DNA from: Escherichia coli
GTDB lineage: Bacteria > Pseudomonadota > Gammaproteobacteria > Enterobacterales > Enterobacteriaceae
DNA length: 64,000 bases
NCBI RefSeq assembly: GCF_022846255.1
Contig: NZ_AP025682.1
Reading direction: 5' to 3' (one strand)
Under the pieces are notes generated by a model. It did not search any database. It saw only the letters and a list, made by a program, of their open reading frames with translations, and was not told where the DNA came from. Shown here in pieces: positions 3,171 to 35,013 of the stretch. A program made the position numbers and the translations under genes. The stretch's first letter is position 1. Each line of letters opens with the position of its first letter.

Positions 3171-4505
3171 TTACTCTTCTGTCGTTTGCGGTGGCACGCC
3201 CGTTCCGCTCGGTTTACGGCGCTTACCAATATTTTTGGTGTCGCGATGGCGTTTTTTCACCCGCGGCTTATCTTTCTCTTTAGCTTTTTTCTTCTCGGCG
3301 CGTTTAGCCAGTACTTTCTTCGATGGCTTGCCGGTCTGCTTCTCGCTTGGCGCACGCGTTTTCGGGCGTAACTCATCAATTACACGAGCTTTAATTGGCT
3401 CTTCAATATAGCGACCAACTTTGCCCAGCAGCAGATGGTCATGGGCTTCTACCAGCGAAATTGCGGTGCCTTTACGACCGGCGCGCGCGGTACGTCCGAT
3501 ACGGTGCAAATAAGTATCGCCACTGCGCGGCATATCGAAGTTAAAGACGTGGCTGACGTCAGGAATGTCGATACCGCGCGCGGCAACATCGGTTGCAACC
3601 AGTACGTTTACGCGACCTTCGGTCAAACGCTTGATCGCTTCGTTACGCTTGCCCTGTACCATCTCACCTTCGAGATAGCAGTTGTTGATGCCCGCTTCGC
3701 GCAGCCAGTTTGCCAGCTCATGCACACGCTCACGCTTACGCACAAACACAATTGAGCGGGTCGCTTCCGGCTGTTTTAACAGGTGCACCAGCAATGCGGT
3801 TTTATGTTCCAGGTCATCGGCGCGGTAATACCACTGATGAATTTTTTTGCGCTCACGGGTGGACGGATTGGCAGAAACCTCCACCGGATCTTCCAGCAGA
3901 CGCTCGGCAAAGTCCTGAATCGCATCGCCTTCCAGCGTTGCCGAAAAGAGCAGGGTCTGTTTACGCCAGCGCGTTTCGCCAGCAATATGTTCGATATCCT
4001 GAGCGAAGCCCATATCCAGCATACGGTCTGCTTCGTCGAGGATCAGCGTTTCAACCGCGCGGCAATCGAAGTTCTCTTCTTTTATGTATTGCAGCAGACG
4101 TCCGGTCGTGGCGACCACAATGTCCTGGTTTTCGCTGAACACTTCTGCGTGGTTCATATAGGCCACGCCGCCGGTGATGGTGGCGATATCCAGATGCGTA
4201 TGTTTCGCCAGTTCGCGGGCATGATCGGCCACCTGCATCGCCAGCTCGCGAGTTGGGGTGAGGATCAAAATACGCGGCGGACCGGATTTCTTACGTGGGA
4301 AATCGAGCAGGTGCTGCAACGCTGGCAGCAGATACGCCGCCGTTTTACCGGTGCCTGTCGGCGCAGAACCGAGTACATCACGGCCATCGAGCGCAGGCGG
4401 AATGGCGGCAGCCTGAATGGCGGTCGGGCGAGTGAAACCTTTATCCTGGAGGGCTTCCAGCAGGCTTTCGTCGAGTTCAAGTTCGGAAAAAGTCGTTACA
4501 GTCAT
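3171..4505 (-). CDS. srmB: ATP-dependent DEAD-box RNA helicase SrmB
   Basis: 444 aa; APTGTGKT Walker A, DEAD box ([14 protein letters not shown]), basic C-terminal tail. Confidence 0.95.
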
Positions 4506-23475: not shown

Positions 23476-25551
23476 TCAATCTTTTTTGTAGTGGTACGCC
23501 TCAAAGCCGCCAGCGTTCAGCGGAATATCGGGTGCCCATTCGGGGTTAGTGGAGAGAAGCGCGGAAAGCGCTTTATCGTTGAAATCTTCTGTGTCTGGTG
23601 CTTCGGTGATCACCTCGTCGTGTACCGTTAGCACAATGCTGTAACCGGCACCCTCGATCAGCGGCATGTTTCTGGCCAGAACGTCGCGGGCGGCCGCCTG
23701 GGTGACGTTCTCCACCAGCTTTCCGCCGTAGGTTTTGAGTCGTTGCCATTTACGCGAATAAGAGTTAACACCCATGTAGGTGATATTCCCTTGTTCGATA
23801 ACCGGAGACGGGTAGCATACAGCGCGTCCGGATGGTAGCTGTATGCGCAGCCACGCGCCATCACGTCGGATTTTAAGATAGCCGCAATACAATGTTTTTT
23901 GCGGTGTGGCGATTGCTGTGCGGACAGTGCGCTCCAGCTCGTACCAGAAATCGCAGGTCGCCGGGTGCGCCCTGCGCCACAGGCGCTTGAGCGAGTCACA
24001 TGCGATGAATACACGCTCGGACAGGCCAAAGGTCGACTTACGCTTAACCGATTCGTCGTACCAGCTTTTTGCCTCGCGGATAACATCGCGGGGAATGTTT
24101 GGCAGTGCGGCGTTCGCCAGCTCGTCGAGATCGAGACCGTAAACCAGAGCAAAAGTGATGAAAGCCGATACACCACCTCCATAACCCAGACCGAGTTCCA
24201 TGACTTTACCGATCTGACGCATGTGTTTATCAACATCATCTGGTGCAATATCGAAAGCTTTTGCATACGCCAGTTTATATAAGTCCGGACCCGTTCCAGC
24301 GTCATACTCTCTGAATGCATTCAGTTTCCATTCTTCTCCCGCCAGCCATGCCAGCATACGGCCTTCAATGTTTGACAAGTCACTTACCACTAGTTTTTTG
24401 CCTGTTGGCGCGATAATGCAGCCACGTAACGCTGAACTGGTTAGTTCCATGATATTGTCAAACAGCAGGTCTGCACATCCGGCTTTCAGTGCTTCGATGC
24501 CTTCGTCTATTTGTTCCTGTTTTAGTGAAGGGCGGGGAAGGTTCTGGGGCTGGAATAGCCGTCCGGCCCAACGACCGGTACGTGACGCCCCGCAGAACTG
24601 TAGCGTACCGCGTAAGCGCCCGTCGTGGCTTACGCCTTTCATCAGTGCCTTGTATTTACTGGTGCTGGTAGTACTGGCTTGCAGGCGGATAGCCAGCAGT
24701 TCTTTCACGGCAGATGATAAATCGGGGTCGGCCATACGACGTTCCAGGGTACTGCGTTGCATGTCTGGTAGCTCCACACCGTAGGATTCAACGATGTGCT
24801 TAATCAACGCGTCCCGTTGTGTGGCTGCCTGCACTTCGCCATCAGTCATTTCCTGTGTACGCTTTGCTAGGCGCTTTTGCTCCTGGTCTACCGCTTCGAT
24901 CGCAGCGCGCGCGAGTTGCATGTCCATGCAGACGCCCCGGTCGTTGATCTGCTGATCACGATGCCAGAGCGCCAGCTCTGTCCCCTGATAATTCCACTTC
25001 GGCAGACGTTTATAGACTTCGCGCATTGCCTCGATATCCAGTCCGGCGTAAGCAACAAAGCGCCGCCATTCTTCCGGGTGGGTTTTGCTGGTGGCACGGC
25101 GCAGTTTGCTGTTTTTCGGGCGGGGCTTACAGAACAGCTGGATCAGCGCTTTACCTTCTTTGTCCTTCGCTTTGTCTTGCGGGACGCCGAGTATTTCGCA
25201 GAGTTCCCCCAGAGACCCCGGGAGACCGTGCGCCAGCGCCTGCACCATTGTGTCTCGCCAGCGTTTGGCGCTACCTGCAACAACGCATTGGGGAGTGTGC
25301 AGCAATGCATGGCGCAACATGGTGCGATCGAAATGGCTGTTGTGTGCATATATTAGTACGCTCTCATCGCTGAGAGCTGTCAGTAGTCGTGTCGGCAAGT
25401 TATAGTCTGTGGTTAAATCGTGTACGCTGACGGGGTCTTCGTCGATTGCCCATGCGAATAACATGATTTCGACTCCTTCTGCATAGACATGGGTGCCGTT
25501 TTTTATTGGGATTTCGCTGAAAGTTTCGAGGTCTAACCAAAGTTTTTGCAT
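23476..25551 (-). CDS. family A DNA polymerase (PolA-like, exonuclease + polymerase)
   Basis: 691 aa from the first ATG ([13 protein letters not shown]... exonuclease-like); the ORF-track start at 25593 is TTG and lies inside the upstream hairpin. Confidence 0.8.
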
Positions 25552-25580
25552 CAAGTAAGGACCCGTTGGATTTAATAAAT

Positions 25581-25607
25581 AAAAAGCCGCCAAAATGGCG
25601 GCTTTTT
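25581..25607 (-). terminator. rho-independent terminator directly after the SIR2-like gene
   Basis: GCCGCC / GGCGGC stem with a 5-nt loop, flanked by A5 and T5 (bidirectional shape). Confidence 0.6.
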
Positions 25608-27784: not shown

Positions 27785-29086
27785 TCAGATGAGGTCTGCG
27801 GTTAGCGTATCGTCGGATACGTCGTCGAAATCATTTACAGGGTTGATATTGAGTGCGGGGCGTGGGTCTGACTCGGGAACGACGGTGGGTTTACCATCAG
27901 CTCGTGTTATCAGTGCCTCGACTTTTGACCAACGGCGCGGACTGGCCTTTTTGATAAGTTTTTCGGCTTTTGTGGGACTAATAAGTTTAAAGTCGAATAC
28001 TTCTTCAGTTTTGTACCTGAACTGGTCCTTCAGAAGTGCGCGAGCTGCCTCTTCATCACTCCAGGCCCGGTTACCTTGTTTTCCTGTTACCAGTTTAAAC
28101 CCCGGTACCGAATGTCCGGCATTGAGTTCATTGTGAACCCGGTCCCGTACTTCCTTTAGCCAGGATTCAATAAAGTCGGCCTGGCTATAGATCTCCGCAA
28201 GCTGCTCAATGGTTAACAGAGGTACACGTGCGCTGGCATTGGTGATTATTTCGCTGACAGGCTTTGTCAGATCTTCAAAGTCGCTGGCCGCTGTTTGTAA
28301 ATGCTGCATTTTCTGGGCAGTGCAAATAGCTTTTGCTTTACAGAAGCGGCACTGTTTTTCTCCAGGTATGAATTTTTCCAGCGGTAGTGTCTCAATGCCT
28401 TCGCATTCAGCAATATTGAGAACAAGCATCGCACTGGTTGCGGCCTCCTGTGCCCGTTCACCGAAAGACTGAAGTTCCTGCACGGTTAACGACCATTCTG
28501 AAACGTGGTTGAGCCTTGGCTGGTGAATAAATAATCTTACAGTCTCAAAGTCATACAGCATGCTGAATTGTTCGAGCGCACCCAGAGCATACAGTTGTAG
28601 TTGCTCATTTTGTTCTGCATCAATGCGGACGCCTTTGCCATATTTCAGGTCGTGGATTTGTAATTCGTTACCAGCGATGATTATGCCGTCGGCAGTTCCG
28701 AAAGATTCTTCCACACCCGTTATATGTGAGAAATCAACACGTTGTTCAACCAATAGTTCATTATTCTTTGCAAGAGTCCAGACCGTATCAACATACCGGC
28801 CGACGGCTTCGACCATTTCATCATCCACCTGTGGGCCAGATGTATCATCAGGATTTTCGCGAAGGGGGTATGAGCCGAGAAACATAGAAACATTGCATCC
28901 GGCGTAGTGTTCCGGGTGGCTTTGCCTGTTTCGTAGAACTTTTTCAGCAAGCGCGTGCGCTGCAGTGCCCTCGATTGCAAAAGTTGTTTCTTTATCCGGT
29001 TGTGTGGCCTCCAGCGCCAGACTTCCTGGGCAGCGCATCCATCGATGCGCTGATGATGGAGAAAGTTGTGCATGAACGTCTGGCAT
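27785..29086 (-). CDS. DUF2800-like PD-(D/E)XK nuclease with C-terminal cysteine cluster
   Basis: 433 aa; [15 protein letters not shown]-terminus and C-terminal [10 protein letters not shown] cluster. Confidence 0.55.
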
Positions 29087-31576: not shown

Positions 31577-31762
31577 ATGAAAAAAGCAGAAGCAATTGAG
31601 CTTGCAGGAAGTAAAGCGAAACTAGCGAGACTATTGAAGGTTTCCAAAGGAGCCGTATCTCAATGGGGGGAGGAAATCCCAGAGTTAAGAGCTCTTCAAC
31701 TTGAAAAGATTTTGGAGCAAAAAAATGTAGTCAAACAAAAAGGCTTAACCCATGTCCGATAG
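31577..31762 (+). CDS. Cro-like helix-turn-helix regulator
   Basis: 61 aa; LAGSKAKLARLLKVSKGAVSQW helix-turn-helix. Confidence 0.65.
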   Translation: MKKAEAIELAGSKAKLARLLKVSKGAVSQWGEEIPELRALQLEKILEQKNVVKQKGLTHVR

Positions 31763-33938
31763 CAAACCATGGGGAGCTACGCCTGATGAGTGGTTTCATT
31801 TTGACCTGGTATTGGGGAGAACTGATCATCTTCTGCCAGTTGTATGTAACCCCGGTGCGACCATATCCCCTGATAGTAAACTGAAAGCGTTGGGTAAGAC
31901 GCCGAGTCGCTATAACCGGGACCGCCAGGTCACCGGTATTGCTCAATGGACCGGGCATGTTGTTACTGAGCATGATTTTGCCCGCTGGTCGAATGAACCG
32001 GATTATGGCATCTGCGTGCGTACAGGCCATGGCTGGCTGGCGCTGGACTGTGATAGCGAAGATGAAGACATTCAGGCAGATATTCGTAAAACGCTTGTGC
32101 AACTTCTGGGTGAGTTGCCGCCGCGACGCTGGCGAGCAAACAGTAATAAGTGTCTGTATCTGCTGGCCGTTGATGGTGATTTCCGTAAGCGTATCCATCG
32201 CCTGGCGGGGGATATGGGCATTATCGAGTTGCTGGCGAACGGGCAGCAGTTCGTTGCCTGCGGTACGCACAGCAGCGGCGCGCGTATTGAATGGGACGGC
32301 GGTTTGCCGGATGAACCTCCGGCTATTACTGGTGAGCAGCTTGAAACGCTGTGGCAGCGCCTGGCTGAACAACTCCCTGTGTCGGTAACCACCGAAGCGG
32401 GCAACACGAAGATGCGCGACCGATCAGCATTCACGCCCGGCGCGACGGATGATACAGCTGAATATCTTGATGCCAATGGCTGGACGCTGCTGGATGGCGC
32501 AAATGGTGAACGATATATCCGCTGTCCGTTTGAAGACGGCCACAGTAGCGGGGGCGATCCAACAAGCACAGTTTATTTTCCTGCGGGAACCGCGGGCTTT
32601 GAGCAGGGGCATTTTAAATGCCTGCATGCCAGTTGTGCGCATCGTGATGACGGAGATTTCCTTAATGCCATCGGGATCCGCAACGACGATTTCGAAGATC
32701 TGACCAGCACCGAAGTGGCGGAACCTTTACCGCTGCCTGCTTTCGAGCGTGATAAATGGGGGCGTATCGAGGCAACCATCAGCAACGCAGCAAAAGCAGT
32801 AGTACGCCCTGATTTTGTGGACATCGATATTCGCTTTGACCAGTTCCGCGACGAAATCATGTTTGCCCCTGCAGGATCCGGACAATGGCGGGCATTCACC
32901 GATGCGGATTATGCGCGCCTGCGCATCACGATGGAAAAGCGGGGATTTAAACCTGTTGGTCGTGAACTTATTCGCGATGTGGTGTTACTTGCAGCCGATG
33001 AACAACCATTCGATTCAGCGATCACCTGGCTGAACGGACTGGAGTGGGATGGCGTGCCGCGCATCGAATGTTTCTACCATACGCACTTCGGTACAGCCGA
33101 CACGCCTTATACCCGTGCGGTGTCTATGTACATGTGGACCGCGTTGGCGGGGCGAGTACTGGAGCCAGGCATCAAAGCGGATATGGTGCCGATCCTCGTT
33201 GGTCCGCAGGGCTGCGGTAAGTCTTCCGGAGTAGAGGCACTGAGCCCTGATCCTGCGTTTTTTACTGAAATCTCTTTTGCCGAAAAAGACGATGATCTCG
33301 CTCGAAAAATGCGTGGTCGGCTGGTGGCAGAGATTGGTGAACTGCGCGGACTTAATACCAAAGAGCTGGAGTCAATCAAAGCGTTTGTGACGCGTACTCA
33401 CGAAAACTGGATCCCGAAATACCGGGAGTTCGCCACCCAGTTTCCTCGTCGCCTGGTGTTCGTTGGTACCACCAATGAGGACGAATTCCTTGCGGACAAG
33501 ACTGGTAACCGTCGCTGGCTCCCCGTGGAAGTGTCGAAAGTCGACGTGAAAGCGATAAAAAGAGATCTCCTTTTACTTTGGGCTGAGGCTCGTGAGGTGT
33601 TTCAGCGTCTGGGGGGTATCCAGTTCCGTGAGGCTGAACAACTGGCAGCGAGTGTCCATGAACAGTACACCATCAAGGATGCTTGGCTTGAAACGGTAGA
33701 GAAATGGCTCGACACGCCAGACCTGATGACTAATGAACTTCCGCGAAATTGCGAATTTTTACGCGCAAGTGATGTTTTGCGTGATGCGATTGGGCTAAAT
33801 CCTGACCGCATCGGAAAACGCGAAGAAATGCGAATTAGTAATGTTTTGCAAAATTGCGGGTATAAGCGTGCCCAAAGGCGAATTGGGGGGAAAAAATGCA
33901 AGGTTTGGGAACCGCTGGAACCACGCGGAACCACCTAA
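31752..33938 (+). CDS. primase / replicative NTPase (bifunctional primase-polymerase N-terminus, P4/VirE-type C-terminus)
   Basis: 728 aa; Walker A GPQGCGKSSG in the C-terminal half. Confidence 0.75.
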   Translation: MSDSKPWGATPDEWFHFDLVLGRTDHLLPVVCNPGATISPDSKLKALGKTPSRYNRDRQVTGIAQWTGHVVTEHDFARWSNEPDYGICVRTGHGWLALDCDSEDEDIQADIRKTLVQLLGELPPRRWRANSNKCLYLLAVDGDFRKRIHRLAGDMGIIELLANGQQFVACGTHSSGARIEWDGGLPDEPPAITGEQLETLWQRLAEQLPVSVTTEAGNTKMRDRSAFTPGATDDTAEYLDANGWTLLDGANGERYIRCPFEDGHSSGGDPTSTVYFPAGTAGFEQGHFKCLHASCAHRDDGDFLNAIGIRNDDFEDLTSTEVAEPLPLPAFERDKWGRIEATISNAAKAVVRPDFVDIDIRFDQFRDEIMFAPAGSGQWRAFTDADYARLRITMEKRGFKPVGRELIRDVVLLAADEQPFDSAITWLNGLEWDGVPRIECFYHTHFGTADTPYTRAVSMYMWTALAGRVLEPGIKADMVPILVGPQGCGKSSGVEALSPDPAFFTEISFAEKDDDLARKMRGRLVAEIGELRGLNTKELESIKAFVTRTHENWIPKYREFATQFPRRLVFVGTTNEDEFLADKTGNRRWLPVEVSKVDVKAIKRDLLLLWAEAREVFQRLGGIQFREAEQLAASVHEQYTIKDAWLETVEKWLDTPDLMTNELPRNCEFLRASDVLRDAIGLNPDRIGKREEMRISNVLQNCGYKRAQRRIGGKKCKVWEPLEPRGTT

Positions 33939-34086
33939 AAGAGAAGGTGGTTCCACCTTGCAGACCTTGTGGCAAGCGGGGCGGAACCACTGGAACCACC
34001 TTTCTACTAGAAACCCCATATATATATATAAGTCGATTGAGGGAAAGGTTAGGAAAAGGTGGTTCCAGGTGGGGGCAGGTGGTTCC
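33908..34086. repeat. iteron cluster with central (AT)6 tract; candidate replication origin
   Basis: GGAACC(A/G)C direct copies at 33908, 33917, 33927, 33983, 33992; inverted GGTGGTTCC at 33946, 34058, 34078; ATATATATATATA at 34018..34030. Confidence 0.55.
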
Positions 34087-34217
34087 ACTCCGCATTAGCA
34101 ACTTTTTGCATGTTGATACATGCAATATGCGAATCGGAACTGCGTTATCCACACCCACGGATAAACAGACGTGGTTCTCAGAAAATTTTTTCGTAGCAAA
34201 ACGTAGAGGTCAGAGCT

Positions 34218-34640
34218 ATGCGTAATATTCAACAGGTTTTAGAGCGCTGGGGTGGCTGGGCAGCGAGTGAAGGTGGTAGCGTCTACTTTCCTCCTGTTGC
34301 AGCCGGGTTTAAGAATCTGCTACCCGCGACGCAGTCTGGAAGGCTGAAATGCAGTGACAATGACGGTCTTATCATCAACTCCGCTATGAGCTGCCTGAAG
34401 AAAAAAGATCCGTATCTGTGCACGCTCCTTGAGTGGCATTACGTCCAGGCCATGCCCGTGCGGGCGATGGGTGAGAAGCTCGGCGTATCTCACACCCACG
34501 TTCTGAAGAGGCTTCAGGCGGCAGAGGGATTTATTGACGGTTGCTTAGCCATGCTGGATGTGGTGCTCGAAATGGATCAGTCGGTTCAGTCAAAGCCTCA
34601 GGCGATCAGGACTTTGCGTAGGAGCTGCTCGGCGGCATAA
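34218..34640 (+). CDS. late-gene antiterminator Q (QuuQ-like)
   Basis: 140 aa; MRNIQQVLERWGGWAA... resembles lambdoid Q as recalled; lies upstream of the lysis cassette. Confidence 0.75.
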   Translation: MRNIQQVLERWGGWAASEGGSVYFPPVAAGFKNLLPATQSGRLKCSDNDGLIINSAMSCLKKKDPYLCTLLEWHYVQAMPVRAMGEKLGVSHTHVLKRLQAAEGFIDGCLAMLDVVLEMDQSVQSKPQAIRTLRRSCSAA

Positions 34641-34671
34641 TATCCAGCAATCAATCACGTAAGGGAACCAG

Positions 34672-35013
34672 ATGGCTCTGATCAGCGTTCGCAACAGATT
34701 TGAAAGCTTCATGGAACAGAGGTACCCAGACCTGTCGTTGCAGGTCAAAGGTAATATTAGCGCATCAATGAAGGCTCAACTTGGCATCAGGATTGAACGA
34801 GAATTGTACAGTGAAGATGTTACTTACTGTGATTCAGCAGTTCAGTTGATGTGGACACTCTTTCAGGCAGGTGTTCTGGCCGAACGAAGAGCTACCAGCG
34901 TTACGCTTCCTGCGCTGAAGGCAAAGCCGGATAGCTTATACGATGCGGGTTATAACGAAGGTATTCAGGACTGTCGTAAACATCTGACGGCATCAGGCAT
35001 CAAGGTAAGATAA
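34672..35013 (+). CDS. hypothetical protein between Q and the lysis cassette
   Basis: 113-aa ORF followed by a terminator at 35080..35104. Confidence 0.45.
   Translation: MALISVRNRFESFMEQRYPDLSLQVKGNISASMKAQLGIRIERELYSEDVTYCDSAVQLMWTLFQAGVLAERRATSVTLPALKAKPDSLYDAGYNEGIQDCRKHLTASGIKVR

What the first reader, a model, noticed from the sequence alone, without database searches (positions are those of the whole stretch)
33908..34086. Iteron cluster with a central (AT)6 tract: candidate phage replication origin
Five direct GGAACC(A/G)C copies and three inverted GGTGGTTCC copies surround ATATATATATATA (34018..34030). The first copies overlap the last codons of the primase/helicase gene and the rest fill the gap before Q. 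Iterons beside an AT-rich unwinding element and the initiator gene are the hallmark of an origin. The six-frame ORFs called here (33841..34098, 33896..34225 and others) are probably artefacts of the repeats.
Basis: seen in the sequence. Interest (0 to 1): 0.55.

Follow-up and report, generated by a model that had tools for sequence, protein, structure and literature searches.

The report
Phage replication origin with swappable repeats
A cluster of short repeats around an easily melted AT tract, just after a prophage's primase-helicase gene, is very probably the phage's replication origin; it is of the type known from staphylococcal pathogenicity islands, and in relatives the repeats and the tip of the protein predicted to bind DNA change together.

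Summary
Eight of the eleven GGAACCRC matches in the 64-kb window lie in 33908..34086, and no other 200-bp stretch comes close.

The origin interpretation is strongly supported by comparison, not by experiment. In 87 related loci and four distant phages (APSE-1, Caulobacter Jess A, Acidovorax ACF1, Kosakonia Kc259) the same layout follows the stop codon of the same gene. The repeated word differs between them, with at least 11 classes.

The word does not track the primase body, cro or Q. It tracks only the last ~20 residues of the primase. These residues model as the beta-hairpin wing of a C-terminal winged-helix domain. The ~55-bp centre with (AT)6 is nearly invariant across nine classes, and no left/right chimeric origins occur.

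The helicase core is homologous to SaPI1 Rep1 (PDB 7PDS, E = 8e-34). Published SaPI origins have this same layout.

- The DNA-binding domain is predicted to be C-terminal; the N-terminus is a prim-pol catalytic domain.
- There is a ninth, degenerate copy.
- The repeats fill only about half of the gap before Q.

Verdict: a new member of a known kind, the SaPI/PICI-type Rep-ori, here in a complete temperate phage. Interest is moderate.

The parts
31752..33938 (+). Initiator gene, 728 aa. It has an N-terminal prim-pol (AEP) domain (aa 1-~320), a VapE/SF3 helicase core (aa 427-639) and a C-terminal domain (aa 590-728).
   Evidence: ORF. Pfam VapE-like 427-639, E = 3.4e-60. PDB 7pds_A (SaPI1 Rep1), E = 8.2e-34 over aa 393-657. 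PHROG 256 (helicase) and 1156 (primase). The N-terminal AF2 model (pLDDT 92) matches the prim-pols of pRN1 ORF904 and phage NrS-1.
33519..33935 (+). C-terminal domain (aa 590-728): a helical bundle followed by a winged helix. The predicted recognition helix is aa 689-701 (33816..33854).
33861..33914 (+). Wing beta-hairpin (aa 704-721, YKRAQRRIGGKKCKVWEP). This is the hypervariable segment that co-varies with the repeat word, and it is the predicted specificity determinant.
   Evidence: Primases 95-99% identical over ~707 aa diverge only here. Each of 21 wing classes maps to one word, with one exception that has mixed arrays of two related words.
33908..33954 (.). Repeat cluster A: three direct copies (33908, 33917, 33927) overlapping the last codons and the stop, plus one inverted copy (33947-54). 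The last direct copy and the inverted copy form a 10-bp palindrome with an 8-nt spacer.
   Evidence: I9. As RNA it folds as a hairpin of -19.2 kcal/mol with no U-run in this class. The same pair is present in relatives, built from their own word.
33983..34000 (+). Repeat cluster B: two direct copies (33983, 33992) pointing towards the AT tract. Close relatives have three.
   Evidence: L002 has a third 9-bp unit. Copy number varies from 7 to 10 among near-identical relatives.
34001..34057 (.). Conserved central core (68% A+T by my count), containing (AT)6A at 34018..34030. This is the predicted DNA-unwinding element.
   Evidence: It is nearly invariant across nine repeat-word classes while the flanking repeats all change. 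The longest (AT)n run is 13 nt in 63 of 87 relatives and 11 nt in 12.
34058..34087 (-). Repeat cluster C: three tandem 10-mers in inverted orientation (GGTGGTTCCA, degenerate GGTGGGGGCA, GGTGGTTCCA), pointing back towards the AT tract.
   Evidence: I1-I3. All relatives have the same three-unit array built from their own word.
34218..34640 (+). Antiterminator Q gene, the next gene downstream. It is not part of the origin, but it must be transcribed through it.
   Evidence: PHROG 79, E = 1.5e-38. No sigma-70-like promoter is found in 33600..34700. The Q cluster does not track the repeat word.

Best explanation
33908..34087 is the prophage's origin of replication, of the SaPI/PICI Rep-ori type.

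Proposed mechanism:
1. The 728-aa protein encoded just upstream is the initiator. It is a single chain with a prim-pol primase, an SF3 (VapE-like) helicase and a C-terminal winged-helix domain.
2. The winged helix reads the 8-10-bp words, TGGAACCAC(C) in this phage. The conserved recognition helix probably contacts the 3' ACC part that is shared by most classes. The hypervariable beta-hairpin wing probably contacts the variable 5' part.
3. Arrays B and C point towards each other across a conserved 57-bp core. Protein bound at these arrays nucleates one helicase hexamer on each side.
4. The (AT)6 tract melts and the hexamers self-load.
5. The prim-pol domain primes. The phage's own family-A-like DNA polymerase (23476..25593) or the host polymerase then extends.
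6. Array A, at the stop codon, is an auxiliary binding site.

Shown: the anatomy, its conservation, the co-variation with the wing, the homology to SaPI Rep1, and the predicted folds.

Inferred: binding, melting, loading, priming, and the division of labour between helix and wing.
For: (1) Extreme, unique clustering of the word.

(2) The layout matches published SaPI and PICI origins: 6-12 iterons immediately downstream of rep, a central AT-rich region, and at least two iterons per side in opposite orientation (PMC9371898; PMC6092414). The latter paper shows that the EcCICFT073 pri-ori segment supports plasmid maintenance.

(4) The same grammar with at least 11 different words follows the stop codon of the same gene in 87 loci. 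It also does so in APSE-1, Jess A, ACF1 and Kc259.

(5) The word tracks only the wing.
- One primase-body cluster (>=97% identical) carries nine words.
- One cro cluster and one Q cluster co-occur with most words.
- 359 locus pairs have >=97% identical bodies but different words.
- 125 pairs have <92% identical bodies but the same word.

(6) All dispersed copies, in both orientations, change in concert while the central core between them stays invariant. No left/right chimeras between unrelated word classes occur: 81 of 86 loci carry the same word on both sides, and the five mismatches are mixed or degenerate variants of related words or a splitting artefact.

(7) Copy number and (AT)n length vary among near-identical relatives, as expected of tandem iterons.

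(8) There is no competing repeat cluster in the window.
Against: - There is no experimental evidence of replication or binding for this phage group.
- The wing codons lie 0-75 bp from the first repeats, so part of the co-variation could be physical linkage. The invariant core and the absence of chimeras argue against this but do not exclude it.
- The AT tract is short (13 bp in a 57-bp, 68% A+T core). At 100-bp resolution the region is not conspicuously AT-rich (GC 0.46-0.58).
- Cumulative GC skew shows no inflection here. Because all the local genes are on one strand, this test is uninformative.
- The words are 8-10 bp, against 5-6 bp in SaPIs. There are also three arrays rather than two.
Confidence: 0.85

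Rival explanations
1. The repeats are mainly a transcriptional element between the early operon and Q. On this view they are a terminator or roadblock built from a palindrome, and the true origin lies elsewhere.
For: - Array A forms a stable hairpin directly after the stop codon.
- In sister classes this hairpin is followed by TTTT(T)AAC and is flagged as terminator-like.
- A perfect stem of at least 8 bp is present in 67 of 87 loci.
- No promoter is found in the gap, so Q depends on read-through.
- P4 has a terminator between alpha and crr.
Against: - A terminator needs only one hairpin. It does not explain arrays B and C, their opposed orientation around a conserved AT core, or the co-variation with the primase wing.
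- The T-rich tail is present in only 32 of 87 loci, and in 4 of 30 of the window's own class.
- There is no other origin-like cluster in the window.
- A secondary terminator role for array A remains possible.
Confidence: 0.05
2. It is an auxiliary cis element like P4 crr. The initiator binds it and it is needed for replication, but initiation happens at a second site elsewhere in the phage.
For: P4 crr lies immediately 3' of the alpha gene and carries type-1 repeats in both orientations, while P4 ori is 4.5 kb away (annotation).
Against: - The window holds no second cluster of the word, only singletons at 32586, 35277 and 43474.
- The protein has no detectable similarity to P4 alpha (E = 0.7).
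- The cluster contains its own conserved AT core, as SaPI/PICI origins do.
Confidence: 0.05
3. The repeats are binding sites for a different protein: a packaging (pac) site, a partition centromere, or operators for cI, Cro or Q.
For: Short repeats in both orientations are also typical of centromeres and operators. In Caulobacter phage Jess A the terminase genes lie about 650 bp downstream.
Against: - The word is independent of the cro and Q clusters.
- It always follows the primase stop codon, whatever gene lies downstream: Q, non-Q genes or terminase.
- In the window the terminase is 2.8 kb away.
- I noticed no partition-like gene among the ORFs I examined, but I did not search for one.
- The only protein segment that changes with the word is the primase wing.
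Confidence: 0.03
4. The repeats are non-functional slippage-prone repeats, or a recombination scar at a mosaic boundary.
For: The locus is a mosaic junction, and copy number varies among relatives.
Against: The grammar is conserved in phages of Gamma-, Beta- and Alphaproteobacteria whose primases are only 35-50% identical. Dispersed copies in both orientations change in concert around an invariant core.
Confidence: 0.01

Closest known systems
SaPI Rep-ori replicon (Staphylococcus aureus pathogenicity islands; Rep1 of SaPI1, PDB 7PDS; PriRep5 of SaPI5)
   Same: - The initiator is a self-loading SF3 helicase, homologous to the protein here (E = 8.2e-34).
- A C-terminal winged helix reads the iterons.
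- The origin lies immediately 3' of the gene.
- Two opposed iteron sets flank an AT-rich centre, with 6-12 copies in all (PMC9371898).
- In SaPI5 the primase and Rep are fused, as they are here.
   Different: - The words are 8-10 bp, against 5-6 bp in SaPIs.
- A third array overlaps the stop codon.
- The host is a complete temperate phage of Enterobacteria with its own DNA polymerase, not a helper-dependent satellite.
- The primase part here has a prim-pol (AEP) fold. I did not compare it with the SaPI primases.
Gram-negative PICI origin (EcCICFT073 pri-rep-ori)
   Same: - It is also from E. coli.
- The origin lies 3' of pri-rep, with two iteron sets flanking an AT-rich region.
- It was shown functional by plasmid maintenance (PMC6092414).
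- Read directly, it has TGTCTACC words in arrangements with opposed orientations.
   Different: - The Pri-Rep protein has no detectable sequence similarity to the protein here (BLASTP E = 3.4).
[quoted passage not shown]
Satellite phage P4: alpha protein with ori and crr
   Same: - One polypeptide combines primase, helicase and a C-terminal origin-binding domain.
- Octamer (type-1) repeats occur in both orientations.
- A repeat element (crr) lies directly 3' of the gene.
   Different: - There is no sequence similarity (E = 0.7).
- P4 needs two separated cis sites, while the window has one cluster.
- From my own knowledge, not tested here: the P4 primase is of a different type from a prim-pol.
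Lambda O / ori-lambda and the lambdoid specificity types
   Same: An iteron array lies next to an AT-rich region. Iterons overlap the initiator's own coding sequence. Initiator-origin specificity is swapped modularly among otherwise similar phages (the last two points are established knowledge, not tested here).
   Different: In lambda the iterons lie inside O and are read by its N-terminal domain, and the host DnaB is recruited through P. Here most iterons lie outside the gene, are read by a C-terminal domain, and the initiator is itself the helicase and primase.
Archaeal plasmid pRN1 ORF904
   Same: It has a prim-pol domain (top structural match) plus an SF3 helicase. A sequence downstream of the gene is essential for the minimal replicon: 166 bp in pRN1 (abstract of PMC4234260).
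   Different: It is an archaeal plasmid. I did not examine whether its origin has iterons around an AT tract.

Membership tests
SaPI/PICI-type Rep-ori replicon | The origin lies immediately 3' of the initiator gene. | tested here: met
   The repeats begin 31 nt before the stop codon and end 149 nt after it. The same holds in 87 relatives and four distant phages.
SaPI/PICI-type Rep-ori replicon | Two sets of iterons flank an AT-rich region, with at least two on each side pointing in opposite directions. | tested here: met
   Two direct copies (33983, 33992) lie left of the (AT)6 core and three inverted 10-mers (34058..34087) lie right of it. The definition is taken from PMC9371898.
SaPI/PICI-type Rep-ori replicon | The initiator is a Rep-type SF3 helicase. 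| tested here: met
   7pds_A (SaPI1 Rep1), E = 8.2e-34 over aa 393-657. Pfam VapE-like, E = 3.4e-60.
SaPI/PICI-type Rep-ori replicon | A C-terminal winged-helix domain determines iteron specificity. | tested here: inconclusive
SaPI/PICI-type Rep-ori replicon | Iterons are penta- or hexanucleotides, 6-12 copies. | tested here: not met
   The copy number fits (8 perfect copies plus 1 degenerate). The conserved word is 8-10 bp, TGGAACCAC(C).
SaPI/PICI-type Rep-ori replicon | The Rep-ori segment drives autonomous replication. | not testable with these tools
   This needs cloning into an ori-less vector with the initiator supplied in trans.
PICI (the element, not the origin type) | A helper-dependent satellite that lacks its own full set of virion genes. 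| tested here: not met
   The window encodes terminase, portal, head protease, tape measure, baseplate, lysis genes and a DNA polymerase. YeP4 is deposited as a complete phage genome, and its paper reports inducing prophages from Y. enterocolitica (abstract of PMC6548840).
P4 alpha / ori-crr system | An initiator homologous to P4 alpha. | tested here: not met
   BLASTP best E = 0.70.
P4 alpha / ori-crr system | Two separated cis-acting repeat elements (ori and crr). | tested here: not met
   There is only one cluster in the 64-kb window. The other matches are singletons.
Lambda-type O/P origin | Iterons inside an O-like initiator gene, plus a P-like helicase loader. | tested here: not met
   The initiator is a prim-pol/VapE protein. 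Pfam and PHROGs gave only helicase and primase families for it. The only reading frame between cro and Q is this one gene, so there is no room for a P-like gene. Only 3 of 9 sites overlap the coding sequence.
Iteron plasmid origin (Rep_3/RepA type with DnaA boxes) | A Rep_3-type initiator and conserved DnaA boxes. | tested here: not met
   Pfam finds no Rep_3 domain in the 728-aa protein. One perfect TTATCCACA is at 34145, but it is not enriched (1 found, 1.8 expected) and is kept in only 25 of 87 relatives.

The most novel reading that the evidence does not exclude
Array A is bifunctional. The initiator-binding palindrome at the stop codon would also be the stem of the hairpin or terminator that separates the early operon from Q. 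Occupancy by the initiator would then gate read-through into Q, coupling late-gene expression to origin firing. The late genes include the toxin cassettes that follow Q in the Stx2b and APSE relatives. The many wing/word classes would then reflect selection to keep replication and late-gene control private to each phage, against co-resident prophages or satellites.
Probability: 0.15. Interest if true: 0.65.

Novelty: new member of a known kind. Interest (0 to 1): 0.45.

Why it matters
It assigns a replication origin and an initiator-origin recognition mechanism to a widespread group of temperate phages. Close copies are in 95-139 of 5426 complete E. coli genomes. The group includes an Stx2b-converting prophage, the Yersinia YeP4-6 phages and the toxin-carrying APSE phages of aphid symbionts. 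I found no origin described for this group in the searchable literature.

It also shows that the origin organisation described as exclusive to PICIs occurs in helper-independent phages. This bears on where satellite replicons came from.

The at least 11 natural wing/word pairs sit on nearly identical protein and DNA backgrounds. They form a ready-made data set for working out how a winged-helix wing reads DNA, and for building mutually orthogonal replicons.

Annotators can stop calling ORFs on these repeats; the APSE-1 'P4' CDS is one example.

Tried and rejected
- **GC skew and composition**. There is no inflection at the locus. All local genes are on one strand, so the test is uninformative.
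- **Promoter/terminator scan of the gap**. It found no promoter and only a minus-strand terminator-like match on the palindrome, so this gives no transcriptional explanation for the window's class.
- **PDB sequence search with the CTD profile**. No hits.
- **NCBIfam**. No family for the primase.
- **P4 alpha and EcCICFT073 Pri-Rep as homologues**. Both rejected; there is no detectable similarity.
- **DnaA-box involvement.** There is a single perfect box at 34145, but it is not enriched and is poorly conserved. I recorded it as a passing observation, not as part of the origin.
- **Confound that the word tracks immunity type.** Searches suggested this. The 87-locus table rejected it.
- **Primary SaPI origin papers** (Ubeda 2007 and 2012). 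These were not held in the library, so I cite their content through PMC9371898.
Full report
**Observation.** The sequence is as described. GGAACCRC occurs 11 times in the 64-kb window on both strands, against 3.96 +/- 2.09 expected, and no shuffle reaches 11. Eight of the matches lie within 33908..34086. An unbiased scan for the most repeated 8-mer in any 200-bp stretch puts this locus alone at the top with 7 copies. The next best locus has 3, and shuffled sequence gives 2-4.

**Anatomy.** There are three arrays.
- Array A (33908..33954) has three direct copies spaced 9 and 10 bp apart. They overlap codons W719-T728 and the TAA stop of a 728-aa ORF (31752..33938). One inverted copy follows, and together with the last direct copy it makes 10-nt perfect arms 8 nt apart (I9).
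- Array B (33983..34000) has two direct copies.
- A 57-bp core follows (34001..34057; 68% A+T by my count). It contains ATATATATATATA at 34018..34030.
- Array C (34058..34087) is three tandem 10-mers in inverted orientation. The middle one is degenerate (GGTGGGGGCA).

B and C therefore point at each other across the AT tract (I3: 14-nt perfect arms with 51 nt between them). Q starts at 34218, so the repeats fill about half of the 279-bp gap.

**The neighbouring gene.**
- Pfam finds a VapE-like helicase core at aa 427-639 (E = 3.4e-60).
- PHROGs calls the protein a DNA helicase/primase.
- The only solved relative by sequence is 7pds_A (E = 8.2e-34, aa 393-657). This is the SaPI1 Rep1-DNA complex (PMC9371898).
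- An AlphaFold model of aa 1-340 (pLDDT 92) matches the prim-pol domains of pRN1 ORF904 and phage NrS-1 (probability 1.00, E = 8e-6 to 7e-4).
- A model of aa 590-728 (pLDDT 91.2, 50-sequence MSA) is a helical bundle followed by helix-helix-beta-hairpin, which is winged-helix topology.

The protein is thus prim-pol + SF3 helicase + C-terminal winged helix.

The surrounding genes are a cI-like repressor, a cro-like gene, Q, lysis genes, terminase, portal, tape measure and baseplate. There is also a family-A-like DNA polymerase and an exonuclease. This is a complete temperate phage, not a satellite.

**Same grammar, different words.** The 700-bp region has close relatives in 139 of 5426 complete E. 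coli genomes. RefSeq annotates no CDS between the VapE gene and Q in six of them. Laid side by side, the relatives keep the layout but change the word:
- GGAACCAC in the window, O103:H2 12009 and an Stx2b prophage;
- GTACCAAC;
- GTTACCAC;
- AGACAACC in Yersinia phage YeP4.

Eighty further loci from IMG/VR raise this to at least 11 classes found de novo. Most are 10-mers that share a 3' ACC: tGGAACCACC, TGTACCAACC, TGTCCCAACC, TGTTACCACC, TGTAACCACC, TGTATCCACC, TAGACAACC, TAGACCACC, TACTCAACC. Primases only ~50% identical (L085-L087) keep the grammar too. So do APSE-1 (CGTAACAACC), Caulobacter phage Jess A, Acidovorax phage ACF1 and Kosakonia phage Kc259.

**What the word tracks.** Primases with different words are 95-99% identical for ~707 residues and then diverge abruptly. 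In the CTD model the divergent residues are the two wing strands, aa 704-711 and 714-721.

Searches suggested that the repressor and cro also differ between classes, so I tabulated all 87 loci.
- One primase-body cluster (>=97% identical over aa 1-690) carries nine words.
- One cro cluster and one Q cluster co-occur with most words.
- Every one of 21 wing classes maps to a single word. The exception is VLKVW, whose origins contain mixed GTAACCAC/GTATCCAC arrays.
- 359 locus pairs have >=97% identical bodies but different words; their mean wing identity is 0.59.
- 125 pairs have <92% identical bodies but the same word; their mean wing identity is 0.81.

**Controls against mere linkage.** The wing codons abut the repeats, so hitch-hiking is a fair objection. 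Three observations weigh against it.
- In an alignment of nine classes the central ~55 bp (TTACTAAGAACCCCATATATATATATAAGTCG..GGGAAAGGTTAGAAA) is almost invariant. Every repeat copy on both sides, in both orientations, differs by class.
- That conserved core is an obvious recombination substrate, yet no locus combines unrelated word classes on its two sides: 81 of 86 loci carry the same word left and right, and the five mismatches are mixed or degenerate variants of related words or a splitting artefact.
- The first wing strand is shuffled relative to the second. AQRRIGGK occurs with both KCKVW and MTRIF, and VQRRVDGK occurs with five different second strands. The word follows the second strand.

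The last residues of the protein (EPLEPRGTT here, SQPVPTSK in the GTACCAAC class) are simply the translation of the iterons. They have lower model confidence. They also change length when a copy is lost, as in L017 and L067.

**Mechanism.** The shown parts are the anatomy, the conservation, the co-variation, the homology to Rep1 and the predicted folds. The rest is inferred by analogy with SaPI Reps. [quoted passage not shown]

The proposed sequence is as follows:
1. The winged helix binds the words. The conserved helix (KREEMRISNVLQN) probably reads the shared ACC, and the wing probably reads the variable 5' part.
2. Opposed arrays B and C nucleate two hexamers.
3. The (AT)6 tract opens.
4. 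The prim-pol domain primes.
5. The phage DNA polymerase or the host polymerase extends.

**Comparison with known systems.** The locus works like, and is related to, the SaPI Rep-ori replicon. It also works like the E. coli PICI origin validated in EcCICFT073 (PMC6092414). I read that origin directly: it has TGTCTACC words in opposed arrays around AT-rich DNA. Its Pri-Rep protein, however, has no detectable similarity to the one here. P4 alpha is likewise unrelated in sequence, and P4 uses two separated cis sites, whereas the window has one. The differences from SaPIs are longer words, a third array on the stop codon, and a complete phage as host.

**Rivals.**
- A pure terminator or roadblock role explains array A at best. 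The hairpin is present in 67 of 87 loci, but a T-rich tail follows it in only 32, and in 4 of 30 of the window's class.
- A crr-like auxiliary role is unlikely without a second cluster.
- Pac, centromere or operator roles are contradicted because the word is independent of cro, Q and the downstream context.

**Novelty.** The origin type is known. I found no description of an origin for this phage group. The APSE papers used a skew tool or list P3 as 'ATPase'. The PICI paper states that this organisation is found in no other known bacterial replicon. I therefore rate the finding a new member of a known kind, with a useful natural series of wing/word pairs.

**Limits.** Nothing here demonstrates replication, binding or melting. 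The structural similarity to Rep1's CTD is modest. Linkage cannot be fully excluded as a contributor to the co-variation.

Noticed in passing
window 34145..34153: TTATCCACA, a perfect DnaA-box consensus, lies about 60 bp right of the last inverted repeat. It is the only TTATNCACA in the window (1.8 expected). It is kept in 25 of 87 relatives and replaced by TTACCCACG, TTATTCACG or TTACCTATG in others. It appears to belong to the Q-upstream segment rather than to a repeat class (seen in only 2 of 11 classes, and not in all members of those).
   Followed up: partly
window 34106..34125: TTGCATGT-TGAT-ACATGCAA is a perfect 8-bp inverted repeat between the origin and Q. It is not conserved in the GTACCAAC or GTTACCAC classes. 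Its function is unknown.
   Followed up: no
window 33925..33957; L003 3327..3366: The first direct and inverted repeat pair forms a strong RNA hairpin directly after the stop codon. In most sister classes it is followed by TTTT(T)AAC and is flagged as terminator-like. In the window's class the T-run is missing. Array A may double as an early-operon terminator upstream of Q.
   Followed up: partly
window 23476..25593 (-) and 27785..29086 (-): The prophage encodes its own family-A-like DNA polymerase (PHROG 17) and an exonuclease (PHROG 69), transcribed leftwards from the repressor. Replication may therefore be largely independent of the host replisome.
   Followed up: partly
L007 4386..5621 (E. 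coli STEC1590): A near-identical relative of this replication/Q module carries stx2b (A and B subunits) and a tRNA-Arg just downstream of Q. This origin type therefore drives at least one Shiga-toxin-converting prophage.
   Followed up: no
L088 3445..3666 (APSE-1, NC_000935): The annotated hypothetical protein 'P4' of APSE-1 lies on the iteron arrays and AT tract downstream of helicase P3. It is probably a spurious ORF. APSE-1 also has an extra direct/inverted pair beyond array C.
   Followed up: partly
L085 and L086 (IMG/VR), about 90-150 nt after the primase stop: In the most distant relatives the central tract is an alternating purine-pyrimidine run rich in GC (TTTGCGCGCGCAAG; CGCGTGCGCGCGCACGCATGTATG) instead of (AT)n. 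The conserved property may be alternation or structural instability rather than AT content alone.
   Followed up: no
L040, L041, L048, L055 and YeP4 (L001 ~4040..4075): Relatives with a non-Q gene downstream of the origin share an alternating CGCGCGTGCGCGCG-like tract just before that gene's start. Its function is unknown.
   Followed up: no
L017 and L067 (IMG/VR): Loss of one iteron unit at the stop codon extends the primase reading frame through array A, giving the tail ...EPLEPPKREGGSTLQAL. This shows that the extreme C-terminal tail is tolerant of change and is shaped by the iterons.
   Followed up: partly
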